A stretch of 62,766 nucleotides of DNA, filler included, from Klebsormidium nitens (Eukaryota; Plantae; Klebsormidiophyceae), in assembly GCA_000708835.1 (NCBI GenBank). It is 7 parts of 7 records of this genome, joined end to end, with 100 filler letters (N's around TTAATTAATTAA, not from the genome) between each part and the next. Parts side by side here need not be neighbours in the genome. Positions count along the whole stretch, not along the records: positions 25,394 to 43,038 come from DF237937.1; positions 43,139 to 59,815 come from DF237981.1; positions 59,916 to 62,766 come from DF238634.1; 4 more parts are not named here. The stretch is one strand, 5' to 3'. Under the pieces are notes generated by a model. It worked only from the letters and a program-made list of their open reading frames with translations. It was not told where the DNA came from and did no database searches. This document shows positions 6,276 to 60,264 of this stretch, in pieces. The position numbers were made by a program, and so were the translations under genes. Position 1 is the stretch's first letter, and each line of letters starts with the position of its first letter.

Positions 6276-6280
6276 GCGAC

Positions 6281-16920: not shown

Positions 16921-17337
16921 AACTACAGTGGCTGGATGACGTCATCAATACGCGACCAGAAATATTTGAGCTAAAGCTTGGACAGCTTGGACTCGCCCTG
17001 ACTCAATCCATGCGCGGTTAAGTACAGTGGATTGATGACGTCATCAATACGCGACCAGAAATATTTGAGCTAAAGCTTGGACAGCTTGGACTCGCCCTGA
17101 CTCAATCCATGCGCGGTTAACTACAGTGGCTTGATGACGTCGTCAATTCGAGACCAGAAATATTTTAACTAAAGCTTGGACAGCTTGGACTGGTCCTGAC
17201 ACAATCAATGCGGTTAATTACAATGGCATGATGAGGTCAGCATTTTCGCGATCAGAAATATTTGAACTAAAGCTTGGACAGCTTGGACTGGTCCTAACAC
17301 AATGAATGCGGTCAACTACAGTGGCCTGATGACGTCA
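16921..17337. repeat. Tandem array, about 4.3 copies of a 97-99 bp unit
   Basis: Units start at 16921, 17020, 17119, 17216 and 17314. The consensus carries TGACGTCA, AAATATTT and AAGCTT palindromes. Confidence 0.9.
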
Positions 17338-19809: not shown

Positions 19810-19884
19810 GCAACACTCGCTTTTTCGTTGAGAAATAATTTCCACTGATAAGTCAAGCTTAAGTGAGCCGGCTGCTAGCTACCA

Positions 19885-20998
19885 ATGTCCACAAGAGTTA
19901 TCCACACTTTGCCACACAATCGACGTAAAGCATTGCTGCTAGAGTTACCAAACCTAAGGAGTATGCTCAAGATTAAGGCAGGCCGAGATGGTTCAAGTCC
20001 AACATCAAGAACTGAATCCACCGTTAACGTGTATCTCCGCCAGATTCGCAACATATACACTATCCTCAATCCCAACAAGCAATTGAATGATTCCATGTCC
20101 ATTGATTGGATTGGCACTCACGAAACGATAATTGAAGCGATCGAAGGCTTGTTAGATACAAAGGGGGAACCCATCAAACGGCTCACAAAAAGTTGTTATG
20201 CAGCACCTTTCTCGATTCTGGCCCAAAAGATGGGCTTCGATGACGCACACAAAGCATTTAGTGACTATATTGAAGCAAAGAAACCCAGTGAGGATGAACT
20301 CGATCGAACGATGCAGAAAAAATCCCCTAAAGAGATTGAAATGTGGGTTCCGTGGAATCAGATTGTCAATGTAAGAGATGACCTTGATCAAATCATCAAA
20401 CGAACGATCGTTGACAAGTTCAAAAATAGCCGAGCAATGACACGCATTGACAAGGAAATTGTCAATAATTATCTGATATTGAGCCTGTATACGATGCCTC
20501 TCGGGCCTTTAAGAAATGAGTTTGGCAGTTGTCGAATCCTTATGAAGGAAGAAGCCGTGGAGTTCGACCCAAAACCCGGCGACATGAACACATGCATACT
20601 AGCCGAGGACCCTAAGCAATGCCAATTTGTCATAAACAGACATAAAACACTCAACAAGGTTGGTATACGAAAGCTGCAGATCCCTGAGACACTAGTCAAT
20701 GTTATACTACGAAGTTTCAATCTCTTTCCGAGGTACTATTTGGTTATGAAACGGTACTACCTGGGCTTTAAGGATGAACCAATCAACAATTTCACCCCTG
20801 TGTTGAACGACCTTGGGCAGCGGTATTTCAACAAAAATCTCTCTTGCACATTGCTTCGTCATATGTGACGGTTGGCCAGCTGTATGCGAAGAGCTGGCAG
20901 AAGAACTACACACGATCAGCAACCATGTGCGGAAACCATGGAAGCAGGCGTTCTCCAGCGATGGCGCAGCTCAGAAAAATTGTCGTCTTTCTGCTCGA
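19885..20998 (+). CDS. NCLDV/PLV-type tyrosine recombinase (frameshifted after LLRH, runs into gap)
   Basis: LILSLYT..GPLRNEF, FVINRHKTLNKVG...IPETL, FPRYYLV and SCTLLRH. The shifted frame continues EELAEELHT. Confidence 0.7.
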
Positions 20999-42792: not shown

Positions 42793-43179
42793 GTTTCCTG
42801 GCGGTGGGAAGTCAAATTCTCGGGAAGGTGCATGTTACCTCAAAAACTTACTAACCTTACAAACCCACTACCTACACAAAGCACTGAGCGTGCGCACGCG
42901 CGACCGGCGCCGACCGGATGTAAACCCTGCGAACTCGACCCAATCATTGGTGGCAACACCCTTGTCAAGCGTAAACCCGCATTAACCAAGTGGCTGAAGT
43001 TGGTGACGTCACAACAAGGAAGCCGCCAAATCGGGAAANNNNNNNNNNNNNNNNNNNNNNNNNNNNNNNNNNNNNNNNNNNNTTAATTAATTAANNNNNN
43101 NNNNNNNNNNNNNNNNNNNNNNNNNNNNNNNNNNNNNNCTGGCGCTGCCAAGCGCTATGCGACGCACACATGCTCCCCC

Positions 43180-43422
43180 ATGCTATTTATCGACTCCTAC
43201 CCAGTGCACAAGAACACGACCACGACGGCTGCCGAGGGGATTAACAAGGGCCTGAAGCAGTCCGCGGCGAGTCTACAGCAGATCACCAGCATCCGGAGGT
43301 TCTTGATGAGGGTGGCCACCATCCTTGACACGCTCTTCGAGCGCAGCAAGCATGCGGTATTTATTGACAGGTCAGGGGGTAGCAATTGGCTCAGAGACTC
43401 GATCATAGATAGGCGCTCGTGA
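43180..43422 (+). CDS. 3' end of an unknown coding sequence emerging from a gap
   Basis: Open from the gap edge with coding-like composition; converges on the primase-helicase. Confidence 0.3.
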   Translation: MLFIDSYPVHKNTTTTAAEGINKGLKQSAASLQQITSIRRFLMRVATILDTLFERSKHAVFIDRSGGSNWLRDSIIDRRS

Positions 43423-43627
43423 GAGACGAGCCTGGAAGCTTGAAACAGCGATACGTAATACGGTGGCCTCAACTCCTTTATAGTATTAATGGCATGTGTT
43501 TGGCTACCACTTGAAAGCTGCTGTATTGCCGTATTGCCGTATTAAGCTTTGCGTTCGTGTATAGTCACGTGGGTGGGAGGGGGAGGTAGTACTAATACAG
43601 TAATATATATCTTAGTGTATTAGTGTA

Positions 43628-46416
43628 TTACAGGGGAGAGGCGACATTGGCGGGGGATTCGGGTGGCAATTCGGCCTCACTCACCACCCTCACCACGTGA
43701 CTCTTGTGGCAAGTGGTACACACCCGTGCGGAACCCTGGATCTTCGCGTCCCTTTCGATCTCGGCGGCCCTGATTTTCAAGTTGGTACTCATGAAGCTCA
43801 TCCATGGGCCAGCTGCATCTACGGTGTGGCCAAACGAGCGCTCCCATTGCCCATACCAATCGACTTCAGACCACATGTTCTCTTTCGTCAGCACTTTGCA
43901 TATCATAGGCTCGCTCGGAAACCACCAGCCTCGTGTTGCTAGTATGCCGTTGACCGACCTCGAACCGTCCCTCAAACCAAAGACGTCTCTAAGTGAGCCT
44001 ATCTTGTCGAGCTTTCTATCATCTTTGATCCGATGACTGTCCAGGAATGACTCGAAAGTCAACATGATGTCAGCAGATGCCACCCATGTCTCTCGATACG
44101 GGTGAAAGCATCCGCTCTCCAACAGACCTTGGATCATCTTCACGGATGTGGAGACTGAGTGGCCCTTGAGGCGCTCTCCCCAAGCGGTCTGCGGAATGTC
44201 CTGGGGATCCCACTCGGAGATGTCGATGGATGATAGGTATTGATAAAACACGTACGGAGTTTCCACATCGTTCAATTCGTGGAACAGAGCTTTGAAGTAT
44301 GCTTTGTTCCGAATCATCTTGTCTGAACTCTCCATCGCAAAGTAGCGTCTATCGTCGGCCTCCTTTTTTATGGGCCAATACTCGTTCGTCGTGAATGCAA
44401 TGTTCTGAAAGTCGTCCACCTGAATCGCGTCCACGCCCTTCCTATTCAGAACGCCCTGGGATTGCGTGATCATACTCTTCAGCCTGTTGTTCGACTTGTA
44501 TGCCCCACCCCAACTGTTCACTTCATCGAAGACGGTTAGCAACTTGTTTGCGGCCACTGCGTTGAATGACCCAATGACATTTTCGAGATCCTGGCAGTAT
44601 AGGTAGAGGTCGATGCCGAGGATCATGATCCCGAAAAAGTCGAAGAGCGCGCTCTTCCCACTGCCTTGCTTTGATCTTATCACCAGGGCCACCCCGGTTT
44701 TCTTGTGTGGCTTCTGAATCACATGCGCAAGCCAGCAGATCAGATATCTGTAAGACTGCTCACACCCATTTGCGAGGATGTTCCGGATGTGCCACAGGAG
44801 TCTAGGTATCTTTGCTTCGCATTCTCGCATCCCTTCCTCGGTAAGCTTCGATTTCAAGGGTTCGAACTTGAGGCCGTTGAACAGGTTGAAATGCTTGGGG
44901 TTACCTTCATTCAGACTGGGGTAGAATACGACTTTATCATACTGTCGCCTTGCCGACGAAGATCGCCAATAGGCTCCAGCGTTCTTGAATCGCCCTGGCA
45001 CCTTGGATAGACCGAGAGTCTCACAGCGCTCTGCAAATTCACGTCCACTTCGGAGGACCTTCTTGAATGGTTTCAGGCTGTTATCTGAATCGCGTTTGAA
45101 GAGTGTCTCAGTGTAAGTGATTCGGGAGGCGCCGGTCACGACCCCGAAATAGTGGTTCATGACTTTGACTACAATATCAAGCAAAGTTGCCACCTCCTGC
45201 TTGGCCGCTGCTTCAGAGTCTTTCTCGTTCGATGTACATATGTACTTTTGGCAGTCTTGCAGTACTCTCGAATTGTCCTCATCGATTTTTAAGGGCAGGC
45301 AGTCGGGCCAAAAATAGACTCCGAGCATCCGCTTGGCTTTCTTGATGCATTCGCCGCCTAGGCATCTGTAGAGGAATATCGCCCCATTGCTCAGGACGCT
45401 GAAATTGTTGCTCGTGTGGTTGCAACCATTCACACATGTCCTCACACCCACCGTTCTGAACTTCATCACATGCCAACCGGTTTTGGTCATAGGTCGCATA
45501 CCGACGAACCGACTCCTGTCCCCGGGAAGCTTCTTCTGCAACAAGGCCGATACCACCTGGACCGCTTCAGAAACGCCGTGGATGATGGTTGCCTCCGGAG
45601 GGATTGAAACAGGAATTGACGCGGTCTGTTGTGCGACTGCATGAGTGGGCTCGAGGGCAGCATTCAAAAATTTTGTGAGCCACTCGGGCATCGCACTCCG
45701 TGGGGAGCTCGCATCTCCGTTGAGCCAGCTGTACCCGTAAGTAGCCCCGTCCTCATCGTGATATGTAGTTGGGCTCACAAAAACCACGCATCCTCCCCCC
45801 GTCCGTCGATAGCCCAAGTCAGATCCAAATGTTTCAGCGATGTGAAGTTCTTTCGGTGCTGAAGCCCTAACGTCTTGCGGTTGCTGAAGTAAAGGTGCAA
45901 TCCTAACCCAGAGCCCGTGGACGCTTTCATAGTGTTGATATCTCCATGCTCTGCGATGAGCGCTGTCCACAGCTCGGTCCCATCTCGTTTCCCGGCCTTC
46001 GGATTGTCTTCAGATGCTTGCACCGTCTTGGCGTCTATGTCAAGGACAAACAAGTCGGAGATGCCGCACAGCAGGGCAATTGCATTCACATGCACTGAGG
46101 CGGATGCAATGATTTCGTCGATATGTTCTGTCCAGGCTTCGACCGAACCCATGAGATGCTCATAGCGATTCGGGAATTGTGGCTTTTTCTTCCCGTTGAC
46201 CATGTCAATCCGCAGAGGGATGCCGTAGAGCCCCTGTTGTGAGAGCTCTTTGATTGCCGCTGATATTCGCATTCTCTGGTAGATAGGGCTAACGTTCTGA
46301 TCCTCCGCAGGTCGTCTGCCAGCGATGACCGCCTCGATCGACTGAGCACCGTAGGGCCTGGCGTCTCGAACTCCGAGACCGGCGTTGGTGGGCAGCGAGC
46401 AAAGTTGAGATGCCAT
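43628..46416 (-). CDS. Bifunctional Prim-Pol / Zn-binding / SF3 helicase (about 930 aa; one frameshift near 45800)
   Basis: LFVLDID, TGSGLGLHLYF and IDGRG (shift in a G-run) GCVVFVSP; then CVNGCNHTSNN...YRCLGGEC, SKQGSGKS, LTVFDEV and DDRRYFAME. Confidence 0.9.
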
Positions 46417-46534
46417 GCGATCTTCCTTACCAGGTAACGAACATTTTATTTTTGAGAAAAACGCGCTCGTTCGGAGATTGTACTTTTTTTCTGAATGTAT
46501 TCCACGAGGCTTAATGACTCTTCAAGTATCCGGT

Positions 46535-46833
46535 ATCAACTCGTACAGCGACGATTTGCGCTCGTGCTTGTGTTCTGTTTGTAAATCAATGCGAGATTAT
46601 GGAGAAAGGCACCCCGATCGCCACACGAAGACCGTCAGAGACTACTATAGTCGCAATCGAGAGGATATACTCCTAACAAAAGCATTCAATCGCCACCAAT
46701 CAGGCATGCATGAAATCTCGGCCAGAAACGTTGGAGAAGCTTATCAATGCTGGATATCCGGTACGTAAAGGACAAACTGATCCTCAAATGCAAATCGGAG
46801 ATTCGGTCGCCCAGTACTTGGCAATTGAAGCAT
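46535..46833 (+). CDS. Small virus-like hypothetical protein (probable frameshift)
   Basis: CSVC...RDYYSRNREDILLTKA pattern, as in small basic proteins of large DNA viruses. It is the only plus-strand ORF called inside 43.6-59.2 kb. Confidence 0.35.
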
Positions 46834-46854
46834 GACTCACAGCTGCTCAGATTA

Positions 46855-47913
46855 CTACCAAGCTATTGGAGTCCCATCGGGCTTGTACTTTTTCTCGTAA
46901 TGGGTCTGCTGAACCGCCACCGAATGCAAACAAGATGACGCCTTTTCAGCCCGATCTCTTAGGGATGGTGCATCTTTGTACTCGTTTGAGATCAAGATCT
47001 TCCGCATCAGGCTCGAACCGACGTTTGCATCCATCCATATGGCCGCCATGAATTTCGAATAATAATTGCGGCCCATGGGGGTATCTGGCTTCTTCATGCA
47101 ACTCAACAGATACCTCCTGGGGAATACGACGAGACTGTCTACAACTACATTGTTCATGCGCTGCGGAAATGCATACATTTTCTCCGCCTGCGATCGGTCC
47201 GTCTTGAAGTATCTGAGGTGGAATGTGAACTGTCCTTCTGCCGTTTCCATGATGTGGTTGCCTTGCATCAGCTTTCGTATCGCTGATGATCGGTGGTCCT
47301 TCATGAAAATGATTGGGGCGTCTGAATAATCGTTCCGCAAGGTTGGTAGATAGGCGTACAAACATAGGATCAGGTGCCGAATGAGGTCGATACGATCCTC
47401 CATCGTAATGTCTGCAGGTTGTTTAGGCAGAATGAGTCTGTTCACACGGCGCTGTAGCTCCTCGCGCTTCTTTGTGATCTGTTCCAGTGTCTTCCAATTT
47501 GCTCCCTCATGCTCTGTCATTTGCTGCAGGGGGGGTTTAAGGGCTTCTCTTGCCTTTCTGATGTCCTCGTGCCTGTCAAAGTACACCTTCCACAGAGCCA
47601 TATCTCGTAGGTGATCCTTTGCAATTATCATGAGGGTGAAGATGTACCCATGCTGAGCTGGCAGTTTATCTGAATACACGTCCTTCAGAAAGTCAATCAC
47701 TTTGGCACAATCCGTCTTGACCCACCGGAGGTCCCTCAACTCCTCAGACCCTTCGAAGAAACTCGTGTGTAACCGCAGGGTCTGCGAAACGTACTGACGG
47801 AGAGTGTTTTCTTTCCGTAGATTGTTGTCGAATGCAGCTTTGACAATCTCATCCGGCGTCGGCTCAACCTCGATATGCTTGACATTATCCACCTTTTTCA
47901 TGATCGTAACCAA
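46855..47913 (-). CDS. Intact NCLDV/PLV-type tyrosine recombinase (about 350 aa)
   Basis: LCLYAYLPTLRNDY (Arg), YFKT (Lys), FPRRYLL, SSLMRKILIS, CLHS and QQTHY (Tyr) occur in the correct order. ATG at 47901. Confidence 0.8.
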   Translation of the reverse strand: MVTIMKKVDNVKHIEVEPTPDEIVKAAFDNNLRKENTLRQYVSQTLRLHTSFFEGSEELRDLRWVKTDCAKVIDFLKDVYSDKLPAQHGYIFTLMIIAKDHLRDMALWKVYFDRHEDIRKAREALKPPLQQMTEHEGANWKTLEQITKKREELQRRVNRLILPKQPADITMEDRIDLIRHLILCLYAYLPTLRNDYSDAPIIFMKDHRSSAIRKLMQGNHIMETAEGQFTFHLRYFKTDRSQAEKMYAFPQRMNNVVVDSLVVFPRRYLLSCMKKPDTPMGRNYYSKFMAAIWMDANVGSSLMRKILISNEYKDAPSLRDRAEKASSCLHSVAVQQTHYEKKYKPDGTPIAW

Positions 47914-48094
47914 CTATGTACTTAGCTACGAAAAAAGTGACCATGGCTCTGCCTCGCCTCGGCTACATAGCTGACTGAGGCATGCCAGAAAAATATCACA
48001 GGCCAGTCGAGACTGTGCTCATGAATGCAATAACCAAATGATCGTTTTCAGTACACAATGGGAATTCATTGGCAAAACGGCCAGAAATTCAGAA

Positions 48095-48116
48095 TCACCT
48101 AAGCGCGCTTAGGTGA
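48095..48116. promoter_or_regulatory. Perfect 22-bp palindrome upstream of the recombinase
   Basis: TCACCTAAGCGCGCTTAGGTGA; function unknown. Confidence 0.5.
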
Positions 48117-48457
48117 ATGGGCCCACATAGGTGACTGGCCCTTGTCAGAATTTTGGACTGCGGGTGGGAACAGTCCTTCAGCTAAGTGGTCAGGATCCAG
48201 ATGGGCCAACAACTTGGTTATTCCATTGATGAGCGGCCATAATCTTTGGATGTTGACCCATCCGAGCCATTGTGCGAGTCTTCGGTTATATACTCTGTTC
48301 CAAACTCGAGCTTCGAGTCAGACACCAAATCGTAATTGGAATACTTGTTGTACTTCGCCATCCAAAGCGATTCACTCTTCCATGTCAAAAGTCCCACATA
48401 GTTCTCGGTCAAATATCCTACGGCCTAAAGTGATCATAGTATTCAAAATTGTACAAC

Positions 48458-48960
48458 TGTACCAGGATGATGTAAGTTGTCTCTATAGAACATGAATGCA
48501 CCATCCTGGTACAAGCTCAGAATGGTTGAATTGTCCGGCTGGCGCCGGGGTTCACAGCTGTACCAGGATGATGTAAGTTCTTTCTTCAGACAATGTATGC
48601 ACCATCCTGGTACAGACTCTCAAAGTTCACCGTTGTACCAGGATGATGTAAGTTTGTTCTATAGAGAATTCATGCACCATCCTGGTACAAGCTCAGAATG
48701 GTTGAATTGTCCGGCTTGTGCCGGAGCTCACAGCTGTACCAGGATGATGTAAGTTAGGCTAGCCTCAAGTCATGCACCATCCTGGTACAAGCTCAGAATG
48801 CTTGAAGTGTCCGGCTCGCGCCGGGGTTCACAGCTGTACCAGGGTGATGTAAGTTAGGCTAGCCTCAGATCATGCACCATCCGGGTACGAACTCGAGTTT
48901 CAATGTTGTGTCAGGATGACATTAGTGCTATGGCGAGATTCGTGCACCACCCTAGTTCAT
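48458..48960 (+). repeat. Palindrome array A (5 full and 1 degenerate 55-56 bp units)
   Basis: Units at 48458, 48559, 48634, 48735 and 48835: TGTACCAGGATG-N31/32-CATCCTGGTACA. Confidence 0.95.
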
Positions 48961-49034
48961 ATCAGGATGATGCATGAATTTGGATGCACGGAGCTGCCAC
49001 CATCATGGTCAGAGCAAGCCAAGCGACCCGAGCT

Positions 49035-49532
49035 TTAGAGTTTGACGCCGCCTGTGCCTTGACCTAGACGTCGCAAGTGCATTCGAGTCAAGTCGTCGAC
49101 GTTGCGCCGAGTGCCAATAATCAGCACCGAGAAATCCCCATCCACCGAGACCTCGACCGAGACCTCCAACACGTCCTTTGAGATGATGCAGCGTCCGAAG
49201 CCTAGGACGTCGATTCCGCCCACCCATGCTTGCGCGTCTTCGTTGAGGTTCCAGAAGTAAGCAGGCAACTCGATCTGGCCCCTGCAATCGTGGGTGGTGA
49301 CCTTGAATCGGTGCAGGTTCTCACCTTGGGTCGGGGCTTCAACGAAGCAGTGTTTTACCCGAGTGATCACAAACGACCCTTCTTCAACGGGATCCTCAGC
49401 TTCCAAGTCGTCCTCAGACAGGTTCGAGTCTTCGAGGAGCGACTCTAGGTCCTTGTCCGTGTATGACTTTGGATCAAAACCCAAGGCGTATGTGCAAGGT
49501 TCACAAGCTCGGTGTTGTGTGATGTCAGCCAT
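49035..49532 (-). CDS. Protein resembling the C-terminal domain of viral fibre/tail-spike proteins (165 aa from ATG 49532)
   Basis: KHCFVEAPTQGENLHRF...IELPAYFWNLNED.Q.WV...FGR...DGDFSVLIIGTRR. Recalled similarity to environmental virus fibre C-termini; not verified. Confidence 0.45.
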   Translation of the reverse strand: MADITQHRACEPCTYALGFDPKSYTDKDLESLLEDSNLSEDDLEAEDPVEEGSFVITRVKHCFVEAPTQGENLHRFKVTTHDCRGQIELPAYFWNLNEDAQAWVGGIDVLGFGRCIISKDVLEVSVEVSVDGDFSVLIIGTRRNVDDLTRMHLRRLGQGTGGVKL

Positions 49533-49737
49533 AATCGTATGTCTATAACAATTTCCGAGATTAAAAAAGACCCATGAAATCCGCGCGATCATGCCAGACG
49601 GCTCGAGGAGCCCGGGCCCAAACTCCAAATGTGCTGTCGATTGCCAATGGGCTTTGGAATCAATGAGGTCTGCAGGAGTTCCCCGGCGGCAGCCGGAAAC
49701 TTAGAGCATGCTGAGGTACAAACTCGAATCCGACCGT

Positions 49738-50394
49738 TGTACCAGGATGGTGCATCAATACTCTGAAGAGAAAACTGACATCATCCTGGTACAGCTTTGA
49801 ACCCCACCGGACTCTTCAATCATTCTGAGCTTGTACCAGGATGGTGCAGGAATTGTCTAAAGAAAAATTTACATCATCCTGGTACAACTGTGCACCCCGG
49901 CGCGAGCGGGGAACTTACATCATCCTGGTACAGCTTCGAACCCCACCGGACTCTTCAATCATTCTGAGCTTGTACCAGGATGGTGCAGGAATTGTCTATA
50001 GAAGAAACTTACATCATCCTGGTACAGCTTCGAACCCCACCGGACTCTTCAATCATTCTGAGCTTGTACCAGGATGGTGCAGGAATTGTCTATAGAAGAA
50101 ACTTACATCATCCTGCTACAGCTGTGAACCCCGGCGCCAGCCGGACAATTCAACCATTCTGAGCTTGTACCAGGATGGTGCATGAATTCTCTATAGAACA
50201 AACTTACATCATCCTGGTACAACGGTTAAATTCGAGTCTGTACCAGGATGGTGCATGGATTTGGCTAGTCAGTATTGACATCATCCTGGTACAGCTGTGA
50301 ACCCCGGTACCAGCCGGAAACTTCAGTCATTCTAAGTTTGTACCAGGATGGTGCATGAATTGTCTATAGAGAATACTGACATCATCCTGGTACA
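49738..50394 (-). repeat. Palindrome array B (7 full and 1 half unit), inverted relative to A
   Basis: Units at 49738, 49832, 49971, 50065, 50166, 50239 and 50339; half unit near 49913-49932. Confidence 0.95.
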
Positions 50395-50480
50395 ACGGTC
50401 GCATTCATGTCACTATGGTCTGGAGTGTTCTTATCATCAAAAAGCATTGAAGCCTTTGTGCATGCCATCATAGCATAAGT

Positions 50481-50996
50481 CTACTGACACTTTAAAGGGT
50501 TGCTCATAACATCCAACATCGGGACCGCCGCACTACGGTCTCCATTGAAAATGTATTGTGGCCCACCGTCTGCGGTTGCATGCTGTAGAAGCTTAGTATG
50601 TTTGTCGAACCGAACTTGCGGGCGTGTGGATTTAGGCTTGAGCACATTCCCCCAGTCTAAAAGAAGATGATATGGATTACGGCATCTATGTGTTCTTACT
50701 CCGGCTTTCTCGAGCCCAAAGCGTACGACTTTCACCATATCGTGCATACTATGGGGCGATAATACTCCTTTTAACCCCGCAATTTCGTCTAGCTTAAGGG
50801 TCATGCGTGTACACCGTTCATTTTCGTATGCTCGTCTGATCCGCCCTATTGATTTATCAAGGCATTGATTGTAAAACTCTTCAATCTGATTGGACCTCTT
50901 GAGATGTGTATTAAGTATGCTTTGCATGGCCGCATGTACTACATTAGGCGTATGTAAAACGAGGCGGCGCCTGGTGGCACACAAAGGCACTTTCAA
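50481..50996 (-). CDS. Hypothetical protein resembling a conserved uncharacterised NCLDV family
   Basis: FYNQCLDKSIGRIRRA...VRFGLEKAGV...YHLLLDW resembles the Y..IL..C..RI...L...GF.V...L.I.W pattern; not verified. Confidence 0.45.
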   Translation of the reverse strand: MKVPLCATRRRLVLHTPNVVHAAMQSILNTHLKRSNQIEEFYNQCLDKSIGRIRRAYENERCTRMTLKLDEIAGLKGVLSPHSMHDMVKVVRFGLEKAGVRTHRCRNPYHLLLDWGNVLKPKSTRPQVRFDKHTKLLQHATADGGPQYIFNGDRSAAVPMLDVMSNPLKCQ

Positions 50997-51219
50997 GGTC
51001 TACACTACAAGGCTCGACAATCCATGTAAGCAACATGATCAGATGAATGTTTGGCACGCCATCGGATCATGAAAAATGAAGTGTCCAAGCACGACAATAA
51101 GGACTTCAAATTACTCATGCATTTCAACAGGGTCGAAGATGCTTCTTTGCACAAGCTTACATTGACTTATTATGTACACCGAGTCATTCCTATTTATCAA
51201 TCGTCTCTGAGTCTCATTT

Positions 51220-51483
51220 GAGCGTTAGCTAGAAGACAGTCAGTTCGAAGGTCACCCTTTTGGTTTCCTAAACCTGCAATCTCCTACTCGAAGCGCGCAA
51301 GGTACAAGAGCGTTAGCTAGAAGACAGTCAGTTCGAAGGTCACCCTTCAGGTTTCCTAAACCTGCAATCTCCTACTCGAAGCGCTCAAGGTACAAGAGCG
51401 TTAGCTAGAAGACAGTCAGTTCGAAGGTCGCCCTCTGGGTTTCCCAAACCTGCAATCTCCTACTCAAAGCGCTCATGGTACGA
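51220..51483. repeat. Tandem array, 3 x 88 bp
   Basis: Units at 51220, 51308 and 51396 start gagcgttagctagaagacagtcagttcgaagg. Confidence 0.92.
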
Positions 51484-51626
51484 TAGTTGGTGTGCTCGTG
51501 CTGCACGCTGCAAGTGGAGATTTCAACAATTTCAGAGGCGTATCAAGATGATGCAAGCTTTTTGTAAAGAAAATCGAATCCTGCCAGCGCCAGCCGTCGC
51601 GTCGGACACTTCAACCATTCTGAGCT

Positions 51627-51682
51627 TGTACCAGGATGGTGCATGAATGGTCTACAGAGAAAACCAACATCATCCTGGTACT
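51627..51682 (-). repeat. Single 56-bp palindrome unit C
   Basis: tgtaccaggatggtgc...acatcatcctggtact, preceded by the array spacer. Confidence 0.9.
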
Positions 51683-51838
51683 GCGGGTAACTTCGTGCAT
51701 GTACCTTGCCTGACCCAGAATAGAGTTTACAAGCTGCATATGCCACTACCATATACCAGGACGGGATCGATAAAAAGCGCCAAATGACTTACCAGGGTCG
51801 CGGGACCGCCCCCTCGCGATGGGGCACGTCATGAATTA

Positions 51839-54800
51839 CTAAGGTGGAATCGTGATCAGGCAGACCTCCTCCACTGGCACATGAGGCTCGGGGGAACCAG
51901 GCTCGGGGAGATCCGCGAGGAGCGGGAAGCCGGAAGGCCTCTCCAGCAAGGGGTCGAAGATGCTGGCATCCAAAGAATCTAGGTACTCTCGAGCGACCGG
52001 GCTTAGCTTCTTGATGAATTGCCACCAGTCGGTCACCTGTCTGAATTGAAGCTTTGCCAGCATCGCCATCTTGTGCACCTTCTCGGCATCCAAGCGGAGT
52101 CGGTAGTCCGCTTGCCCTGCACCCGACTTGTTGGTCCCACGTCTCGGCCGAGATACCTCGATCAGTGGCTCAAACTCGAGCCCGGTTGCTCCCATCATCA
52201 CATTCAAAGCGCCTTTCAGCTCTCCGGGCGACCACTCGGTGCAGCCGACTTTAAACTTCAGACGCACCCCCCCGGACATTTCCGAGGGCGTCCTCTCCGC
52301 CATCGATGCTCCACGTTGAGACCGACTTCTATACCCCTTGAACAAGGCGGTCTCCAAAAGGGCTTTCTTGAGCCCGCCCGAGATGAAGGAGCGGGTCGGA
52401 GTCAAGTCGAAGGGGTGGGCGAGACCAAGGGCCTTGAGCACTTCTCGCACGAACTCCGCCATTGGCTTGTCGTTCATTGTGACGCCCATCCCTTCTCCAT
52501 TCAGGTTCTCGTCTGGAATGAGGACCTTGAGGAGCATGGGAAGCTCCTCCATGAACGGCGGCTTGATGGCGTCTTGCACTGTGCCCCAGAAGAAGGGCTC
52601 GAGCGTCGCAAGGCCGTAGAAGTTGCATAGCTCGTACCTCAATGCCTCGACATTCTCATTGCCTACATCCCGCTTCACATCCCGGAGCTGCTTCACCTCA
52701 GCGTACTCTTTGGCGCTCAATGCCTTTGCCCCGAAAATTCTTCTTGCCTCCTCGCCAAATGCATCAGGTCTCTGCTTCTTTCCCACCGGCGTGGGTACAA
52801 ACGGGGCCACCTCCAGGATGTGCCCCGCCTTGTCAATCTGAAGCTTGAACTCGTGAAGGAAGCGTTCGTTTGAGTTCCGTCGCTCTGCTTCGGTGTGGGT
52901 TAGGGTCCGGAAAAGAGGCCCGTCCTCCTTGATGTGAACCACCCTGCTTGGTAAGAGCGGATTGTTCTCGTCCCGCACAGAGACTCGTTCATCTCGGAAC
53001 GACCGCGCCTGTTCCACGTTGCAACAACGGAGGTATGCGGATGTCTCTTCGACTGTAATCCGTCGAGGCGAAACGAACTCGCCGGGCGCCTTCTTTGCCT
53101 TCTGCAAGAATGAACGATAGGATTTCAGCGGTTCCATTGTGATCAAGTCTTTCAAATGTGCTTCGTTATGCAAAATCTAGAGCAGGTCTTTGGCCAGTCA
53201 GAACCAACATCATCGCTTCGCTCATGGGCTTTGCCTTCGCTGGTACAGCTGTGAACCCCAGCTAGCGCCGGACCATCTGTCGAGGATGCAACTGAGCTTA
53301 GAAACAAGTTAACCTACCGTGACAAGCTCAGCCTCCACCCCTTCAACTTCGGTTGTTTTAGTAAGCACCGTGACCGCCATGGTCTGCAGTGATCAATGAA
53401 AGACGTCAGATTTAAGAGGTTATTCACCTCAAGCAAGTCATTAACAGACATGAAATATGGAGCGGACAAAGATTCTACATAATGACGATAATGCGAAGTT
53501 CTCCAGATCAAAGCTGTATCATTTGTTATACTCACCTGGGTGTTGCTGATATTCTGGGGGATTTCGAGCTCTTCCACGGGAACCACCACTCTGTCATCCA
53601 CCATCACCGATATGCCAGACTGGATGCAGCAGTTGACGACTGGGTTGCTCGTGTGTCGGACTCGCAGAGATCCTTGCCAAATGCCTCGAGCGGTGGCACT
53701 TTGCATGCACATATATATGTACTTGCAGTCAAACCACCGCACGGCAAAATTGACAGCTGCCTCCACTGTGGGGCTGTACATCAACAACCGCACCTTCCAG
53801 TTCGTCTCGACGTCATCGAGGAGAGCCATGTTCTCACTGCTGCTGAGGGCTGTATGGACCACTATGTCCGCCTCTGACAAGATCCCTTTCTCCAGGATGC
53901 GTGCCTGAAGGCGATATAGCGCCTTGGTGGACATGAAGATCCCGACCACATTGAGCCCGGACTGAAGGTCGGCAATGATCATATCGTGCCAGTCCGACTC
54001 CGATCGATGGATTCGGAATGTGAGCTGCTCCTGTATGGAATAGAGCACTGATTCACAAGCTTGGCAATGACTGCCCACTTTTTGCTTCTGATCAAAACTC
54101 CAGTCTCCTATACGGCATGTTTCTTGCCTTTCTTCAAATTGCGGGTGAAGCGCACGAGATGCCTTGACGTTGCATGATCTGTTTTCTAATGCCCTTGGAC
54201 TCTACGGGCATCGTGTTGCAAGAGACTAAATGTTAAGCATTTCACATGGCCAATTTATTTCAAGAAGCTTCAATCAGACTGAGTCAAGGTCATCTGCAAC
54301 CAACCTTAGCCAAGCGCTCGTTGATGATAAGCTGTCCTCGGACGTCCGCCATCTGGAAGAAGTCATGCTCCCGCTGGGCATATCCGTCGTCCATAGCCAG
54401 AACCCGTGATGCATTCTGAACGATCTCCAACAGAAGATTAGCAGTACACATCCCCCGTTTCAGCGTCGCTGCGGAAAGGTGGGCCAGTATGCTGGCAGTC
54501 TCATCGAGAACCACCACGTCAAAGGGTGGAACCTCGCCAACTCCCTGAGGGCGGAGCCCAAGCAAGCTGTCCACCTGGATGATGAGGTCAGGAAATGCCT
54601 CTCTGTTTTGAAGCGCGGTGAGCTTCTCGCTGCTCCCTGGATCCGCAAAATACTCATCGCTGTAATCAGCCTTGAGGTCCAGGTAGTTCTCAAAGCCTGG
54701 GAATCTCTTCTTCAGATCTTTGGCCTGAGCCACTCGATATGTGATGAAGACGATGGTCAGTGGCCGTCGGCTGCTCGCACACTCCAACTCGGATAAAATG

Positions 54801-57800
54801 GTTGTACAGGTCTCAGTCTTGCCAGTACCGACGCCCGAGCGGAAGGCCAGTAGAGGGAACTCCGGAGGGCCGAGCTCTCCCTCCGCATCCGTCTGTCCGA
54901 TCCACCTGCAAAAGGTTTCAAGATGTCAAGCACAGCCTTTTCAAGTGTCCATCATCTGATCTGGAGGTAGGCCCACAAGCTCAAAACGCTCAAAGGTTCC
55001 CGGCTGGCGTTGGGGTTCACATGTATATCAACACACTCTTCTGTCCTAGATTTTGGACTATCATAATACAGCTCGATCAAGCCCCCGCACGTGTCAGAAT
55101 GATGTCAACTCTTCTTTTGGGATCAACTCTGATTGCAGAACGACAAACCTATCGATGACGCTGTTAAGGCGTGCCGAATCCGTAGACACTGCTCGTCCGG
55201 CGGCCACCTCGGCAAGCAGAGCGGGGGAGCTGGCTGCCCGGTCACGTCCCAAGTACTCCATGTCAACCACGATCGCAGCAGACCGGAAAGTCAAGCTGTC
55301 CTCGTACAAGTCCCCCAAGTATAACGCCTTGGAACGGCAGGACATCCGGGGCGTCGCCCTGAAGGTCGGTGTTGGTGCTGAAGCACAGTGCGTAAATCTT
55401 GCCATCAGAGGCGAGATGGCACGTCAGGTTCTGACGGCCGTCATGCACGCGGCCTGTGTAGCAGGGCTCGGACCGGTCGGTGTAGTTGAACCGATATGGG
55501 CCTTCCGGATAGGCCGTGGGATGGAGCCTTTCCCGCAACAAGGTCAGCATCCGCTCCTTCACAAACGCACCGTTCTGTGGAGTGCGGTCGCCGAAAGCTG
55601 TTAGCTGCTTTGGATCCGATGGACCCTTGTACAACTTGGCTAGGAGCGTGAATGGCACCTTTATTATTTCACAATCCTGCACAAAAAAGAAAAGTCCTCG
55701 GTTGGCAAAGCTCGACCAAGGTACAATATACGAAACGAAAGACTATTGNNNNNNNNNNNNNNNNNNNNCTGTCTGCCCGATCCACCTGCAAAAGGTTTCA
55801 AGATGTCAAGCACAGCCTTTTCAAGTGTCCATCATCTGATCTAGAGGTAGGCCCACAAGCTCAAAACGCTCGAAGGTTCCCGGCTGGCGTTGGGGTTCAC
55901 ATGTATATCAACACACTCTTCTGTCCTAGATTTTGGACTATCATAATACAGCTCGATCAAGCCCCCGCACGTGTCAGAATGATGTCAACTCTTCTTTGGG
56001 GATCAACTCTGATTGCAGAAGGACAAACCTATCGATGACGCTGTTAAGGCGTGCCGAATCTGTAGACACTGCTCGCCCGGCGGCCACCTCGGCAAGCAGA
56101 GCGGGGGAGCTGGCTGCCCGGTCACGTCCCAAGTACTCCATGTCAACCACGATCGCAGCAGACCGGAAAGTCAAGCTGTCCTCGTACAAGTCCCCCAAGT
56201 ATAACGCCTTGGAACGGCAGGGCTCCGGGGCGTCGCCCTGAAGGTCGGTGTTGGTGCTGAAGCACAGTGCATAAATCTTGCCGTCAGAGGCAAGATGGCA
56301 TGTCAGGGTTTTCTGGCGGCCATCATGCACGCGGTCTGTGTAGCAGGGCTCGGACCGGTCGGTGTAGTTGAACCGATATGGGCCTTCCGGATAGGCCGTG
56401 GGATGGAGCCTTTCCCGCAACAAGGTCAGCATGCGCTCCTTCACAAACGCACCGTTCTGTGGAGTGCGGTCGCCGAAAGCTGTTAGCTGCTTTGGATCCG
56501 ATGGACCCTTGTACAACTTGGCTGGGAGCGTGAATGGCACCTTTATTATTTCACAATCCTGCACAAAAAGAAAAGTCCTCGGTTGGCAAAGCTCGACCAA
56601 GGTACAATATACGAGGGCCACAAAAAAAAAAAAAAAACGAAAGACTATTGTACCAGGATGATGTTAATACTATCTATAAAGAATTCATGCATCATCTTTG
56701 TACAAGCTCAGACTGATAGAAGCGTTCAGCTAGCGCCGGAGTTCACAGCTGTACCAAGATGATGTAAGTTCTTTCTATAGACAATTGATGCACCATCCTG
56801 GTACAACCTCAGAATGATTGAAGTGTCCGGCTGGCGCCGGGGTTCACAGGTGTACCAGGATGATGTAAGTATTCTCTATAGACAAGTCATGCACCAGCCT
56901 GGTACAACAGTGGTCGTAGGACTCCGTACCAGCGTGGGCGAAGCCTACGAGCGAAGCGATGGTGTACGTTTTCTCTATAGTGATGTCAAAATTGACATCA
57001 CTCCGTCACAGCTTCACAAAGCCTCCTGAGGTCAAGAGAAGCATCCTCGAGCACTCACCTCTGGCGGCGGCAATCACGTCACCAATGCGTCCTTCCACGT
57101 GTGGGCCGGATCGAGAAACTGGAGGACGCTTCCTGGCTTCTCCACTTTGGCACTCCCCGGGGTGCGCCACTCCTGGTCCCTGGTGTACACGTCCATGTCC
57201 AGAAGGTCGGCTACCTTGGGCTCCCAGAGCATCAGCCGCTTCTTCAAGCGGATAGCAAAGTCCTTGGCCCCGTCCGACAAGTTTGACTTAAAAACTAGCT
57301 GCTGGGGCCCCGTCGAGTTGATCGTGAGGTGCATACTGAACTTTGCCTGGCTCCCACTCTGCATCCAGACAAAGTTGCCTTGGCCTGCAAGTCTGATGCC
57401 GTAGTCTGTTTCAAACACGACCGTCGTCCACTGCTCGATCCTCTGCATGACCTCCTGGTGAGTTATTCTAACTGGTCCTTCACCAGCACCATCCGTCGCC
57501 GGGACACGAGGCCTGAAAGGCAGCCCCTCTTTGCCGTCTAGGTCCAGGTAAGGTTTGCAGGGTTGCCCATCCTGGATGACCTCAAACACGGAACCATGTT
57601 GCTGCGAGAACAACAAGTGCTGTTCTGCAGTGCGCCAGTCAGGATAGGAGGCGTAGCTGCGCCACGAAATACGGAGGCCGGTCCTGATATCATGCCGCCC
57701 AGACGACATGTGGAGGACGACTCGTGCCTTATGGTTGAGCAGGCATTCTGGTGCATAAAGTATTTGGGGCCAGGCTGACTTTCGCGGCTTTTGTTGCCGT

Positions 57801-59187
57801 GCTTGTAGAAGAGGTTGGCGCCATACTCCCACTTCCGTACGACAGTGTACCCTCCTTGCTTGTACACCTCGTTTCCACTCAGGAGCTCTGATGTTTGCCG
57901 CGATGATTGGAATCCCTCTGGCGCGTCACTGGACCCTTCCAAAGCTGGCACACCCAGGTCCCTGTATTGAGTCAAGCTAGGTCGAGTCAGTAGGATGCTG
58001 CAAAACCCTGGAGCATGGGATGGACATGCTCAAACACAGTGGCCGGAGTTTCGGCGGCCCGCCGGGATCATTCGGCGGCCCGCCGGAATCATTCGGCGAC
58101 CCGCCGGACATGATGTACCAGGATGGTGTAGAACACTTCTATAAAGAAAATCTGCATCATCTTGGTACAGCGGTCAGATGGTGCATACATCTGGCCAGGA
58201 AACTGATACCATGCTTGTGCAGTGGCTGAGCTTTGCCTCTGTACCAAGATGGTGCGTGAAATCTCTATAGAGAAAGCTGACATCATCCTGGTACAGCTGT
58301 GAACCCCGGCACTGAGCCGGACACTTCAACCATTCTGAGCTTGTACCTTGTCTTGAAAGAGTACGTGGGCTTGAGAACCAACCTTGTAGAGACTGACCCG
58401 CCTTGTGAGAACTCTTGCAATCCATCTCGACCTCCAGCCACTGCCACCTCCAGTGAAGATGTCACCTCCAATAAAGACTCGATCGCGCTCATTGAAGACT
58501 CAATCGCTGTAGCTGCTTTCTCCAGCTCCGCAGCCTTCTCTAGCTCCCGCCGCTTTGTATATTCCTCAAAGTGTGGTGTATAAGCTTGCTGCCTGCGAAC
58601 GGCCTGCATCAAGGAGTGGTGGTCCAGTACATGGAACTTCATGAACCAATCCCAGTGACGTATGGAACTGAAAAATGGAGCTTGTCATCTTGCACTTGAA
58701 GTTGAGCTTGGCGCCGGAAATCTCATGTATTTTGACTCCGTACGAAGATGGTGCAAACATCTGGCCAGTTAAAATTGACATCATCGTGGTACATCCGAGC
58801 TAAACACAATTCTGCAGCTGAGCTGCTGAGCTTTCCATTGAGTCTAAGCAGAAATCAATAGAGGCGGTCAGAGGGGTGAAACTCACGTCGGTCACCGCTG
58901 CAGGCTCAGCCTTACTTATGAGAATGCCAAAAGGGCCTTTCTCGGATGGCTCCATGATTGGACCCGATGCCACACGCCACCCACAACCACACCACCCTTT
59001 TTACGATGACAGAAAGCCTCCACACTTCTGCATTGATATCATCGACCAAAATTTGTTCAAGATGGCAACTGAGCGCCACGCTCAATAGCTCAAGGAGCCC
59101 GGCCTGTGACTCTTCCCTCCGCCAAGTTGTATCAAATTGAAATGCCAACAGTGTGCCCAGGGTCGGCTTGTGGTAGTGGTCGAATAT
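51839..59187 (-). CDS. Multi-exon AEP primase / Zn-ribbon / UL9-like SF2 helicase (about 1,600 aa; two 1-nt frameshifts and one internal stop)
   Basis: Exons: 59187-58916, 58667-58347, 57997-57059, 56558-55990, 54905-54305, 54030-53318, 53176-51839. Motifs: FEVI..QPCKPYLDLD, KFSMHL, DVYTR.QEWR, C..RVH...C, RSGVGTGKT, FITYR, IIQVDSL, VVLDE, YSPTVEA and QGSLRVR. Confidence 0.8.
54889..56648. repeat. 880-bp tandem duplication around a 20-N gap
   Basis: 54889-55748 matches about 55769-56648 with scattered differences. Only the distal copy has the primase exon intact. Confidence 0.85.
56649..56906 (+). repeat. Palindrome array D (3 units), inside intron 57058-56559
   Basis: Units at 56649, 56750 and 56851. 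Confidence 0.95.
58050..58108. repeat. About 3 x 21-bp GC-rich tandem repeat
   Basis: ttcggcggcccgccgg(g/a)atca at 58050, 58071 and 58092. Confidence 0.85.
58114..58347 (-). repeat. Palindrome array E (2 full units, 1 degenerate unit and a half arm), inside intron 58346-57998
   Basis: Units at 58114 and 58240, with a half arm at 58342-58347. A further degenerate unit lies at about 58739-58793. Confidence 0.9.
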
Positions 59188-60264
59188 CTAGCATGCTCAC
59201 TGAGAAGTATGACCTACTAAGGTCTCTACTGATACTAATTATCTGCTATGTCAGTTGGTGTGGGCTTGCTTGAGCTTGGATGGGGCGTTTATTGGCCGCT
59301 TTATCTCCTGCATGTGATTTTCGCTTCATTTTGCAGTGTAACATGCAATATTTGCAAGGGAGATCGGTCCATGTGTGGAGCCCGTGAGACTGCTAGCGTC
59401 GAAAACGTTACATTTAAATGAATATTCAAACATGTCGGTGCAAGCAGGGGGTCTGTATTGAGAAACAGGTCCTTGCCCACTACGTTTTTTGTCTCAGCAT
59501 GCCAAACTTGGCAAAAATCACGGGCAATGTGCGCAGTCCATGACATGCAAAGCATCGATTCTCAATCTGGGTCCCTTTCGGTCGGAGCGTCGGGATTGGG
59601 GGCCAAGGCTGCAGTTTTCTGCCACGTGTTCGCAAGCGGAGCACCCGGACCGTGACTGACGGCCGCTCCAACGGGCTCGATTACGGTACGACCGTCCTTA
59701 CTTACGATCGGTGGGGGCAGCTGATGCTCGTCACCCGGCAGCGTGCCCGAAAATGCCGGGGTCCGACCGTACGGAGCTGCGGGCACGTGGTACGGCGCGC
59801 CCGGGGCGAGTTTGGNNNNNNNNNNNNNNNNNNNNNNNNNNNNNNNNNNNNNNNNNNNNTTAATTAATTAANNNNNNNNNNNNNNNNNNNNNNNNNNNNN
59901 NNNNNNNNNNNNNNNAACCGCCGTTTTGACCATGTAGCTAGAGTGGTCGGTTTAGGCTGGCTAGTGGCTCTAAAGGTAGCTTTTGTAAAGCCCTTCCACA
60001 TGCAGAAACCAGAATGCGAAAATATTGAGCGACGCTCTTGTTACTGGCGAAGACGGGCCCCAGGACGTCAGACGCGCGCGCGCGAATCGATTTAGGGAAG
60101 TTCGACCTTAAAATGACGCTCTGAATAAAGAACAATGGCAGTTCTCTTCTCTGAAGCCACATGAAGTTCCTCTCCGGAGTTCGTCAAGCGAAGGGAATCT
60201 TGGCGACCACACGTAAACTTCGAAACAATTGACAAAATCCCATGACGACGAACTTTGCGCGCAC

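What the first reader, a model, noticed from the sequence alone, without database searches (positions are those of the whole stretch)
43139..59815. Capsid-less virus-like element with two unrelated primase-helicases and a recombinase
Seen in sequence: almost all genes lie on the minus strand, including an intronless Prim-Pol/SF3 helicase, an intron-rich AEP/SF2 helicase, a tyrosine recombinase and virus-like orphans. No MCP, packaging ATPase or PolB was recognised. Established: PLVs pair a primase-SF3 helicase with a tyrosine recombinase but also encode capsid genes. Inference: a new integrative self-replicating element, a composite of two elements, or a deleted endogenous virus. Both ends are at gaps.
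Basis: partly seen in the sequence, partly recalled or inferred. Interest (0 to 1): 0.75.

Follow-up and report, generated by a model that had tools for sequence, protein, structure and literature searches.

The report
Virus-derived two-helicase mobile element in alga
A 16.7-kb piece of DNA from the alga Klebsormidium carries a recombinase and two different virus-type primase-helicases but no recognisable capsid gene, and its genes recur as a diverged multi-copy family, so it is likely a virus-derived mobile element that would copy itself in the nucleus, although both of its ends, where capsid genes could still lie, are missing from the assembly.

Summary
The genes are real. The block is one whole 16,677-bp Klebsormidium nitens scaffold. 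Its flanking 'gaps' are artificial N44-TTAATTAATTAA-N44 joins, and a reading frame runs off each end, so no terminus, TIR or att site can be seen. The minus strand holds an AEP primase fused to a UL9-type SF2 helicase (five GT-AG introns), two orphans, a virophage/PLV-type tyrosine recombinase and a Prim-Pol/SF3 helicase. Pfam found no capsid, packaging ATPase or PolB in 141 ORFs. As assembled, both helicase genes are broken, but sister contigs and intact homologues show open frames and a synonymous excess. Both helicases form Klebsormidium clades (9 and 7 named paralogues). YR-SF3 adjacency recurs in 5 of 7 gene models, and the two-helicase pairing recurs once, in a distant subfamily. Best reading: an old family of integrated PLV/virophage-derived elements, likely moving by YR excision and self-primed replication. 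'Capsid-less' is unproven, because K. nitens has seven PLV capsid contigs whose neighbours I could not read. Two primase-helicases in one genome is known (ASFV).

The parts
43039..43138 (.). Artificial scaffold linker N44-TTAATTAATTAA-N44 (left); not a biological gap
   Evidence: Same linker at six places in the window
43141..43422 (+). C-terminal 93 codons of a convergent multi-copy gene running off the scaffold; weak MULE/FAR1-SWIM lead, not a capsid match
   Evidence: Atlas nearest clusters are eukaryotic hypotheticals (0.93); nearest named ones are SWIM 0.87 and MULE 0.85, below the tool's recognition threshold; no Pfam hit; contigs of X1, X5 and X12 continue leftwards
43591..43624 (.). 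34-bp AT-rich imperfect hairpin just after the SF3 stop; possible transcript-end signal (untested)
   Evidence: Self-match on the opposite strand, 30 of 34
43628..46416 (-). Intronless Prim-Pol + SF3 (DUF5906) primase-helicase, 929 aa in intact copies; 1-bp frameshift at 45788/45789 in this assembly
   Evidence: Pfam; 88-95% identical to intact P0078/P0080; the one X1 contig over the break has the extra base; motifs D126/D128, H174, D204; Walker A GSGKS read in the ORF
46855..47901 (-). Tyrosine recombinase, 348 aa, intact; virophage/PLV (OLV11-like) type; predicted catalytic R189, K233, R300, H326, Y335
48448..49009 (.). Palindrome array 1 (5 full 55-56-bp units plus 2 decayed)
49035..49532 (-). 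ORF165, beta-rich virus-like orphan; not matched to a capsid family
   Evidence: Atlas best cluster 98% viral, score 0.91, below the recognition threshold; no Pfam, PHROG, NCBIfam or phage-genome hit; AF2 model unusable, pLDDT 35
49725..50407 (.). Palindrome array 2 (7 full units, opposite orientation to array 1)
   Evidence: an X5 contig joins 49614 to 50481 without it
50481..50927 (-). ORF148, orphan
   Evidence: ORF; no significant family hit
51220..51481 (.). Unrelated 88-bp tandem repeat, 3 copies
51530..51696 (.). One full and one decayed palindrome unit
51839..57961 (-). AEP primase + UL9-type SF2 helicase + C-terminal domain. Exons 57961-57059 (5' boundary inferred), 56558-56029, 54905-54305, 54030-53536, 53383-53318, 53176-51839. 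Frameshift at 57741; TGA at 57074-57076
   Evidence: Spliced model from 57742 onward; tblastn of paralogues; AEP motifs PYLDLD, HL, DVY; Walker A GTGKT, Walker B LDE; X1, X3 and X5 contigs carry 4 extra bases at 57741
54885..56650 (.). 880-bp tandem near-duplicate around the N20 gap; likely two sister copies or haplotypes merged by scaffolding
   Evidence: 22 differences in 846 columns; an X5 loose end at 55771 runs straight into the 54890 sequence
56643..57003 (.). Palindrome array 3 (3 full units, 1 decayed) inside an intron of the AEP-UL9 gene; another decayed unit sits in the intron at 53191-53264
58110..58797 (.). Two full and one decayed palindrome units upstream of the AEP exon, around a 133-codon ORF (58283-58684, minus) that may be a 5' exon
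   Evidence: exon status is an inference by eye, with no significant BLAST hit
59562..59813 (-). 83-codon open frame reaching the right scaffold end; the sequence continues in run contigs
   Evidence: 3 X1 and 9 X5 contigs run over the ends of the stretch laid; no Pfam hit
59816..59915 (.). Artificial scaffold linker (right)

Best explanation
This scaffold is an internal 16.7-kb part of one copy of an old, multi-copy Klebsormidium element family that carries a tyrosine recombinase and two primase-helicases of virophage/PLV/giant-virus type and likely spreads inside the nucleus without its own capsid. Shown: the three enzyme genes, their motifs, the introns, the paralogue clades, the recurring gene neighbours, and no capsid family in the part seen. 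Inferred mechanism, none of it tested: (1) the recombinase would excise the element as a circle and re-insert it, as proposed for YR-bearing PLVs; (2) the AEP-UL9 protein would bind the 56-bp palindromes (two 16-bp inverted arms around an A/T-rich centre) and open them as origins; (3) the Prim-Pol/SF3 protein would unwind and prime the fork; (4) with no PolB seen, elongation would use host polymerases or the element's own primase-polymerase domains; (5) host RNA polymerase II and the spliceosome would express the genes. This particular copy is broken as assembled, partly perhaps by assembly error.
For: AEP-UL9: 8 of 8 hits in the long-protein search were K. nitens paralogues at 46-59%, a ninth came from cluster members; window plus six paralogues form one clade, support 1.0. 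SF3: 7 named K. nitens paralogues fall with the window in one clade, support 0.987, with three subfamilies. 5 of these 7 gene models have recombinase sequence fused in front. Seven JGI contig lengths are shared by a YR and an SF3 protein, so co-location is inferred from equal lengths. AEP-UL9 P0004 and SF3 P0020 have consecutive locus tags on one 21.6-kb scaffold, at 57% and 47% identity to the window. Intact 929-aa and 345-aa homologues exist. Among 47 coding differences taken from the 80 best-supported rows are synonymous against 13.4 expected: SF3 13 of 20, AEP-UL9 14 of 27. All three enzymes have relatives in virophage contigs: L014 and L024 hold a Sputnik-type MCP, a UL9-type helicase and a homologue of this YR; L005 and L006 fuse a homologue of this Prim-Pol to a UL9-type helicase. 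The palindrome has 10 exact matches against 0 in 100 shuffles, all inside this scaffold, none in the other 46 kb. No capsid family in 141 ORFs; the largest unassigned stretch (1,854 bp) has no ORF over 133 codons.
Against: Neither end is in the scaffold, so capsid genes may lie outside it, and no att site, TIR, empty site or circle was seen. K. nitens has 7 PgVV-group MCP contigs, close to the number of paralogues. The sister of this family in the tree (P0101, support 0.99) sits on a 61,232-bp scaffold and one MCP contig is 60,623 bp; two family scaffolds (21,601 and 18,827 bp) are also just above MCP contig lengths (21,174 and 18,407). These length matches are hints only, and about one is expected by chance among small scaffolds. 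The two-helicase pairing recurs in only 1 of 9 AEP-UL9 paralogues that I could place, though most are first or second genes of their scaffolds. The palindromes are absent from the YR-SF3 half, and summed contig depth is higher there in X1 and X8, which fits two modules. Introns do not exclude a true virus: punuivirus has 61 intron-bearing genes. Pfam misses divergent PLV capsids. Arrays are absent from some sister contigs, which weakens the origin role.
Confidence: 0.45

Rival explanations
1. An endogenous Polinton-like virus (PgVV group) whose capsid module lies beyond a scaffold end or survives only in full-length copies; it would integrate by YR and form virions, perhaps with a giant-virus helper.
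For: YR plus a primase-helicase is the usual PLV non-structural set. 7 PgVV-group MCP contigs exist in K. nitens, with length coincidences to scaffolds of P0101, P0008 and P0004/P0020. Both ends are open. ORF165 is virus-like.
Against: 16.7 kb without a structural gene leaves little room in a typical 15-30 kb insert. Neither contig of this scaffold (12,610 and 4,047 bp) matches an MCP contig length. The open frames at both ends give no capsid match, and the left one leans to MULE. I saw no PLV with two primase-helicases in the passages read.
Confidence: 0.27
2. A composite of two elements: an intronless YR + Prim-Pol/SF3 module and an intron-rich AEP-UL9 + palindrome element that tend to nest, possibly beside or inside a MULE-type transposon.
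For: Palindromes occur only at 48448-58797. Introns occur only in the AEP-UL9 gene. Summed X1 depth is 40-138 over YR-SF3 against 19-60 over AEP-UL9 exons (not a copy number). Another scaffold in the window has a different SF3 and YR with 99-bp repeats and no AEP-UL9 in 6.3 kb. The left ORF is MULE-like.
Against: The pair recurs in a distant subfamily (P0004 with P0020). Both genes show Klebsormidium radiations of similar depth. All five genes are co-oriented, and no junction or target duplication is visible between the halves.
Confidence: 0.15
3. Fragments of an endogenous giant virus, spread passively by segmental duplication and gaining introns in place.
For: The nearest outside AEP-UL9 relatives (33-40%) lie on GC-rich contigs with giant-virus-like genes (T5orf172, PriCT_2, weak D5_N, S74). 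ASFV has both helicase types. K. nitens holds NCLDV DNAP, MCP, ATPase and VLTF3 genes.
Against: No NCLDV core gene occurs in 16.7 kb. The gene set is reduced to mobility and replication functions. Three subfamilies keep the YR-SF3 order, and copies show purifying selection, which passive decay would not give.
Confidence: 0.1
4. A mis-scaffolded chimera or a contaminant contig.
For: One internal N20 gap with an 880-bp near-duplicate shows that two copies were merged locally. No run contig spans the scaffold.
Against: The gap falls inside one gene whose exons on both sides splice in frame, and YR, SF3 and the last four AEP-UL9 exons share one gap-free 12.6-kb contig. GC 0.515 matches the other scaffolds (0.47-0.52). 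Paralogues lie on large host scaffolds. Runs of other studies, laid here, cover it (X5, X8).
Confidence: 0.03

Closest known systems
Polinton-like viruses with OLV11-like tyrosine recombinase (PgVV group; Yutin 2015 PMC4642659, Bellas 2023 PMC10120064)
   Same: Size class, YR, primase-SF3 helicase, no PolB in many, integrated in algal genomes; PgVV-group MCPs are reported in K. nitens
   Different: No MCP, mCP or ATPase in 16.7 kb; a second, UL9-type primase-helicase with five spliceosomal introns; palindrome arrays; ends unseen
Virophages carrying a UL9-type primase-helicase (contigs L005, L006, L010, L013, L014, L017, L024)
   Same: UL9-type SF2 helicase, homologous YR (20-24%) in L014 and L024, homologous Prim-Pol domain in L005 and L006
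   Different: They encode Sputnik-type capsid proteins (6 of 11 loci scanned hit the MCP family) and one primase-helicase, are mostly AT-rich and have no introns seen
ASFV C962R + F1055L, mimivirus R8, mriyavirus SF2_hel (PMC10516667, PMC11253617)
   Same: AEP fused to a UL9-like SF2 helicase; ASFV also has a second primase-SF3 helicase
   Different: These are virion-forming viruses with MCP and ATPase; ASFV's SF3 partner is a D5-type AEP, here it is a Prim-Pol (PF09250) with DUF5906; mriyaviruses carry an HUH endonuclease, none was detected here
Capsid-less YR elements: Cryptons, pipolins (recalled), Amoebidium Plavaka giant repeats (PMC11244446)
   Same: YR-bearing, no capsid, multi-copy in genomes
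   Different: Cryptons encode no replication enzymes; pipolins (recalled) are prokaryotic and use a primer-independent PolB; Plavaka repeats are intron-poor and flanked by a Plavaka transposase
Baculovirus hr regions and herpes oriS (recalled, not from a call)
   Same: Dispersed tandem units with an imperfect palindrome; inverted sites around an A/T-rich spacer next to a UL9-type protein
   Different: No sequence similarity was tested or claimed; here some units lie in introns and arrays vary between copies

Membership tests
Polinton-like virus | Double jelly-roll major capsid protein | tested here: inconclusive
   None in 141 ORFs by Pfam and no room for a 400-aa ORF, but both ends are open and Pfam is weak on PLV MCPs
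Polinton-like virus | Minor capsid protein and A32 packaging ATPase | tested here: inconclusive
   No hit; ORF165 fold unusable; ends open
Polinton-like virus | YR or RVE integrase plus primase-helicase (frequent, not universal) | tested here: met
Polinton-like virus | Terminal inverted repeats or defined ends | not testable with these tools
   Reading frames run off both ends; no end-to-end similarity; no whole genome held
Virophage | Sputnik-type MCP, penton, ATPase, cysteine protease | tested here: not met
   The Pfam models that detect these capsids in L006-L024 hit nothing in the scaffold; holds for the 16.7 kb seen
Polinton/Maverick | Protein-primed PolB and RVE integrase | tested here: not met
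   No hit in 141 ORFs; a YR is present instead
Endogenous giant virus (Nucleocytoviricota) | Core genes PolB, MCP, A32, VLTF3, D5 in a large insert | tested here: inconclusive
   None in 16.7 kb; the SF3 is DUF5906-type; flanks unseen
Mriyaviricetes | MCP, ATPase, VLTF3 and HUH endonuclease | tested here: not met
   No Pfam hit; features from PMC11253617 passages; divergent HUH domains could be missed
Crypton | YR as the only enzyme | tested here: not met
   Two primase-helicases lie beside it, and the YR resembles virophage YRs
Mobile element (any) | Several dispersed, diverged copies with conserved gene order | tested here: met
   (from gene models and locus tags, not DNA)
Mobile element (any) | Insertion polymorphism, empty site or circular form | not testable with these tools
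   Only short contigs were available; no raw or long reads

The most novel reading that the evidence does not exclude
An autonomous, capsid-less eukaryotic DNA transposon that left the PLV/virophage world, integrates with a tyrosine recombinase and replicates with two primase-helicases of its own instead of a PolB. The UL9-type one would fire herpes-like palindromic origins repeated along the element, and the family has lived in Klebsormidium long enough to gain spliceosomal introns and split into three subfamilies.
Probability: 0.35. Interest if true: 0.8.

Novelty: new variant of a known kind. Interest (0 to 1): 0.55.

Why it matters
Polintons once thought to be capsid-less transposons have mostly turned out to be viruses (PMC10120064), so a verified capsid-less, self-replicating, YR-integrating family in a eukaryote would fill a missing step between virus and transposon. 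It would also give a small system in a cultured alga related to land plants, in which a UL9-type initiator and its candidate palindromic origin can be tested directly. If capsid genes turn up beyond the ends, it is still a PLV type with two primase-helicases and spliceosomal introns that I did not find described, but of more ordinary interest.

Tried and rejected
No whole genome is held, so copy number, ends and neighbours rest on gene models and locus tags. Left terminus at 43147: first read from loose ends, then rejected, because the X5 loose letters continue the plus-strand frame with synonymous changes 8 bases from the edge of the stretch. Scans with no related locus: SF3 protein or alignment in viral contigs; YR alignment in metagenome contigs and viral contigs; the palindrome pattern in viral contigs and genome contigs. 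Rfam: 0. PHROGs and NCBIfam gave nothing for the orphans or YR; ORF165 had no phage-genome match. The single-sequence fold of ORF165 was unusable and not searched. The YR model gave one BFVD hit at E<=0.001, unnamed. ORF148 did not complete by the Atlas; my recalled likeness of ORF148 to a giant-virus family and of ORF165 to a tail-fibre chaperone region got no support from any call. No RNA holder is listed on record; X12 is only guessed to be RNA. Earlier findings of the scan: 0 in five look-ups. Dropped from trees for low coverage: 9 of 54 rows (six viral-contig loci, most of them virophage, plus L030, L031, L044) and 3 of 51; the trees are FastTree, midpoint-rooted, with no donor test. The Bellas Dataset S1 gene maps are a picture and gave no neighbours; the Microbiome 2025 supplements held no Klebsormidium row.
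Full report
What the block is physically. The window is a string of small scaffolds joined by the same N44-TTAATTAATTAA-N44 linker, six times. The finding is exactly one scaffold of 16,677 bp, so its neighbours in the window are not genomic neighbours. A named K. nitens gene model (P0072) is 99% identical to two ORFs here and lies on a record of 16,677 bp, which identifies the host. No whole genome was held. GC is 0.515, like the other scaffolds (0.47-0.52).

Genes. From right to left on the minus strand: (a) an AEP primase fused to a UL9-type SF2 helicase. Six exons with five GT-AG introns splice in frame into 1,237 aa, 48-50% identical to four K. nitens paralogues over nearly the whole length, with AEP and helicase motifs present. 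A profile of 23 relatives hits herpes origin-binding proteins and PrimPol in PDB. (b) ORF148, no match. (c) ORF165, nearest Atlas cluster 98% viral but below the recognition threshold. (d) A 348-aa tyrosine recombinase, supported transitively and by weak Cre-family fold matches. (e) A Prim-Pol/SF3 helicase. A plus-strand frame runs off the left end and leans weakly to MULE/SWIM proteins; a minus-strand frame reaches the right end. No capsid, ATPase or PolB family was hit in 141 of 141 ORFs, and the largest unassigned stretch is 1,854 bp with no ORF over 133 codons.

State of this copy. As assembled, the SF3 gene has a 1-bp frameshift at 45788/9, and the AEP gene has a 4-bp frameshift at 57741 and a stop at 57074. 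The one X1 contig over 45788 has the extra base, and X1, X3 and X5 contigs have four extra bases at 57741; both open the frame. These are assembly errors or private deletions; the stop could not be checked. Intact 929-aa and 345-aa homologues at 87-95% exist in JGI records. Of the 80 best-supported differences shown (from about 2,400 listed), I classed 47 coding ones: 27 synonymous against 13.4 expected. A few coding rows, mainly the X8-only C>T/G>A ones, were left out, and many rows come from the same diverged contigs. The 880-bp near-duplicate at the N20 gap is probably two sister copies merged.

It is a family. All 8 long homologues found for the AEP exon were K. nitens proteins, plus one more; they sit on nine different scaffolds of 8-164 kb. 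The SF3 search gave 46 hits; 5 were named K. nitens models, and two more came from cluster members. In trees the window groups with them (support 1.0 and 0.987), with three SF3 subfamilies. Five of the seven SF3 models have YR sequence fused in front, and seven JGI contig lengths are shared by a YR and an SF3 protein. One other scaffold has AEP-UL9 and SF3 at consecutive locus tags, both from other subfamilies. Against a single element: that is 1 of 9 paralogues, and summed contig depth is higher over YR-SF3 than over AEP-UL9 in X1 and X8, though flatter in X5 (the tool warns this is not a copy number).

Eighteen full 55-56-bp imperfect palindromes and about six decayed ones lie in arrays of about 100-bp period between 48448 and 58797, between genes and inside introns; there are none in the YR-SF3 half or elsewhere in the window. 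Ten exact matches compare with 0 in 100 shuffles. The pattern was absent from viral contigs and genome contigs. Summed depth over one array is 1,113 in X1 against about 20 for single contigs, and some sister contigs skip an array. The layout of inverted arms around an A/T-rich centre next to a UL9-type gene suggests origins, by analogy with herpes oriS and baculovirus hr regions (recalled). The spacer looks too long for a lox-type site (recalled), and a parasitic minisatellite is not excluded.

Relatives outside Klebsormidium. The AEP-UL9 search of 1.84 billion representatives gave 1,586 hits at E<=0.001, including a group of 1,030-1,180-aa proteins at 31-39%. Their contigs are GC-rich, with giant-virus-like genes and no capsid hit among 39 ORFs scanned from L026-L037; L026 and L027 have D5-like fragments nearby, and L034 has a YR-like stretch next to the gene (E 0.009). 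More distant relatives (23-31%) lie in 25 viral loci; 6 of the 11 whose ORFs I scanned carry Sputnik-type MCPs, 3 of 25 carry a homologue of this YR, and L005 and L006 join a homologue of this Prim-Pol to a UL9-type helicase. All three enzymes thus come from the virophage/PLV/giant-virus gene pool.

Literature, read as passages around search terms unless stated. PMC11253617: AEP-UL9 fusions in mimivirus R8, ASFV F1055L and mriyaviruses. PMC10516667: ASFV has two primase-helicases. PMC4642659: PLV core is MCP, mCP and ATPase; OLV11-like YR; circular donor proposed. PMC10120064, passages plus supplement rows: 7 PgVV-group MCPs in K. nitens. PMC5294986: NCLDV genes in K. nitens. 10.64898/2026.10.09.758095: introns in punuivirus. 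PMC11244446, PMC5890265, PMC12344493, PMC12220804 and 10.1101/2022.07.28.501842 were read as passages for context. I found no description of this family in searches (listings only). That library lacks most subscription papers, and the supplements that could map K. nitens PLVs were not readable (Roitman bioRxiv files closed; Bellas spreadsheet cut and its gene maps a picture).

Verdict. A real, multi-copy, virus-derived element family with an unusual enzyme set. I put 0.45 on a capsid-less nuclear element, 0.27 on a PLV with its capsid module out of view, 0.15 on a composite, 0.10 on giant-virus debris and 0.03 on artefact. It works like a YR-integrating PLV replicon; membership of PLVs is undecided. 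Interest 0.55, rising to 0.8 if complete copies prove capsid-less.

Noticed in passing
window:14699-20998: A second, distantly related element on another scaffold: D5-type SF3 helicase end (15674-16513; PHROG primases, E 1e-33), 99-bp tandem repeat x4.4 (16906-17337), orphans, a probable decayed YR (19291-19809) and a YR (19879-20868, 23% to the one studied) that runs to the scaffold end.
   Followed up: partly
P0002-P0008, P0095 (N-terminal region); possibly window:58950-58970 minus: The AEP-UL9 paralogues carry a conserved (G/A)(V/I)ESNPG motif upstream of the AEP domain that resembles a 2A ribosome-skip peptide (label recalled). The canonical Asp is replaced and only two have the final Pro. 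The window has a possibly decayed GIGSNHG.
   Followed up: partly
run X8 on window:43139-55748: Differences are skewed to C>T and G>A (434 against 52 T>C/A>G), unlike X1 and X5. This would fit bisulfite-treated DNA of a heavily methylated region or deaminated copies; the library type is not on record.
   Followed up: no
run X12 contig 7 on window:43139-43995: A 1,438-nt contig from a run guessed to be RNA covers the SF3 3' end and the left ORF with 3 differences and continues 581 nt beyond the scaffold; it may be a transcript of the convergent gene.
   Followed up: partly
P0101: Another K. nitens AEP-UL9 gene, sister to this family, lies on a 61,232-bp scaffold; a PLV MCP contig in PMC10120064 is 60,623 bp. 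If they are the same locus, the family's closest relative is in a capsid-bearing PLV.
   Followed up: partly
L005, L006, L010, L013, L014, L017, L024: Virophage contigs use a UL9-type SF2 primase-helicase with varying N-terminal primase domains (Prim-Pol in L005 and L006; PriCT_2 hits in others).
   Followed up: partly
window:9012-9749 (minus): Intron-free SET-domain ORF (PF00856) on another scaffold, near orphan ORFs at 6224-8317; may be virus-derived.
   Followed up: no
window:465-1749 (plus): Frameshifted ORFs that look by eye like a DIRS-type reverse transcriptase/RNase H (label recalled; no significant Pfam hit).
   Followed up: no
window:59916-62766 (minus): Host gene fragment resembling a mitochondrial ATAD3-type ATPase (label recalled from the ORF text).
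   Followed up: no
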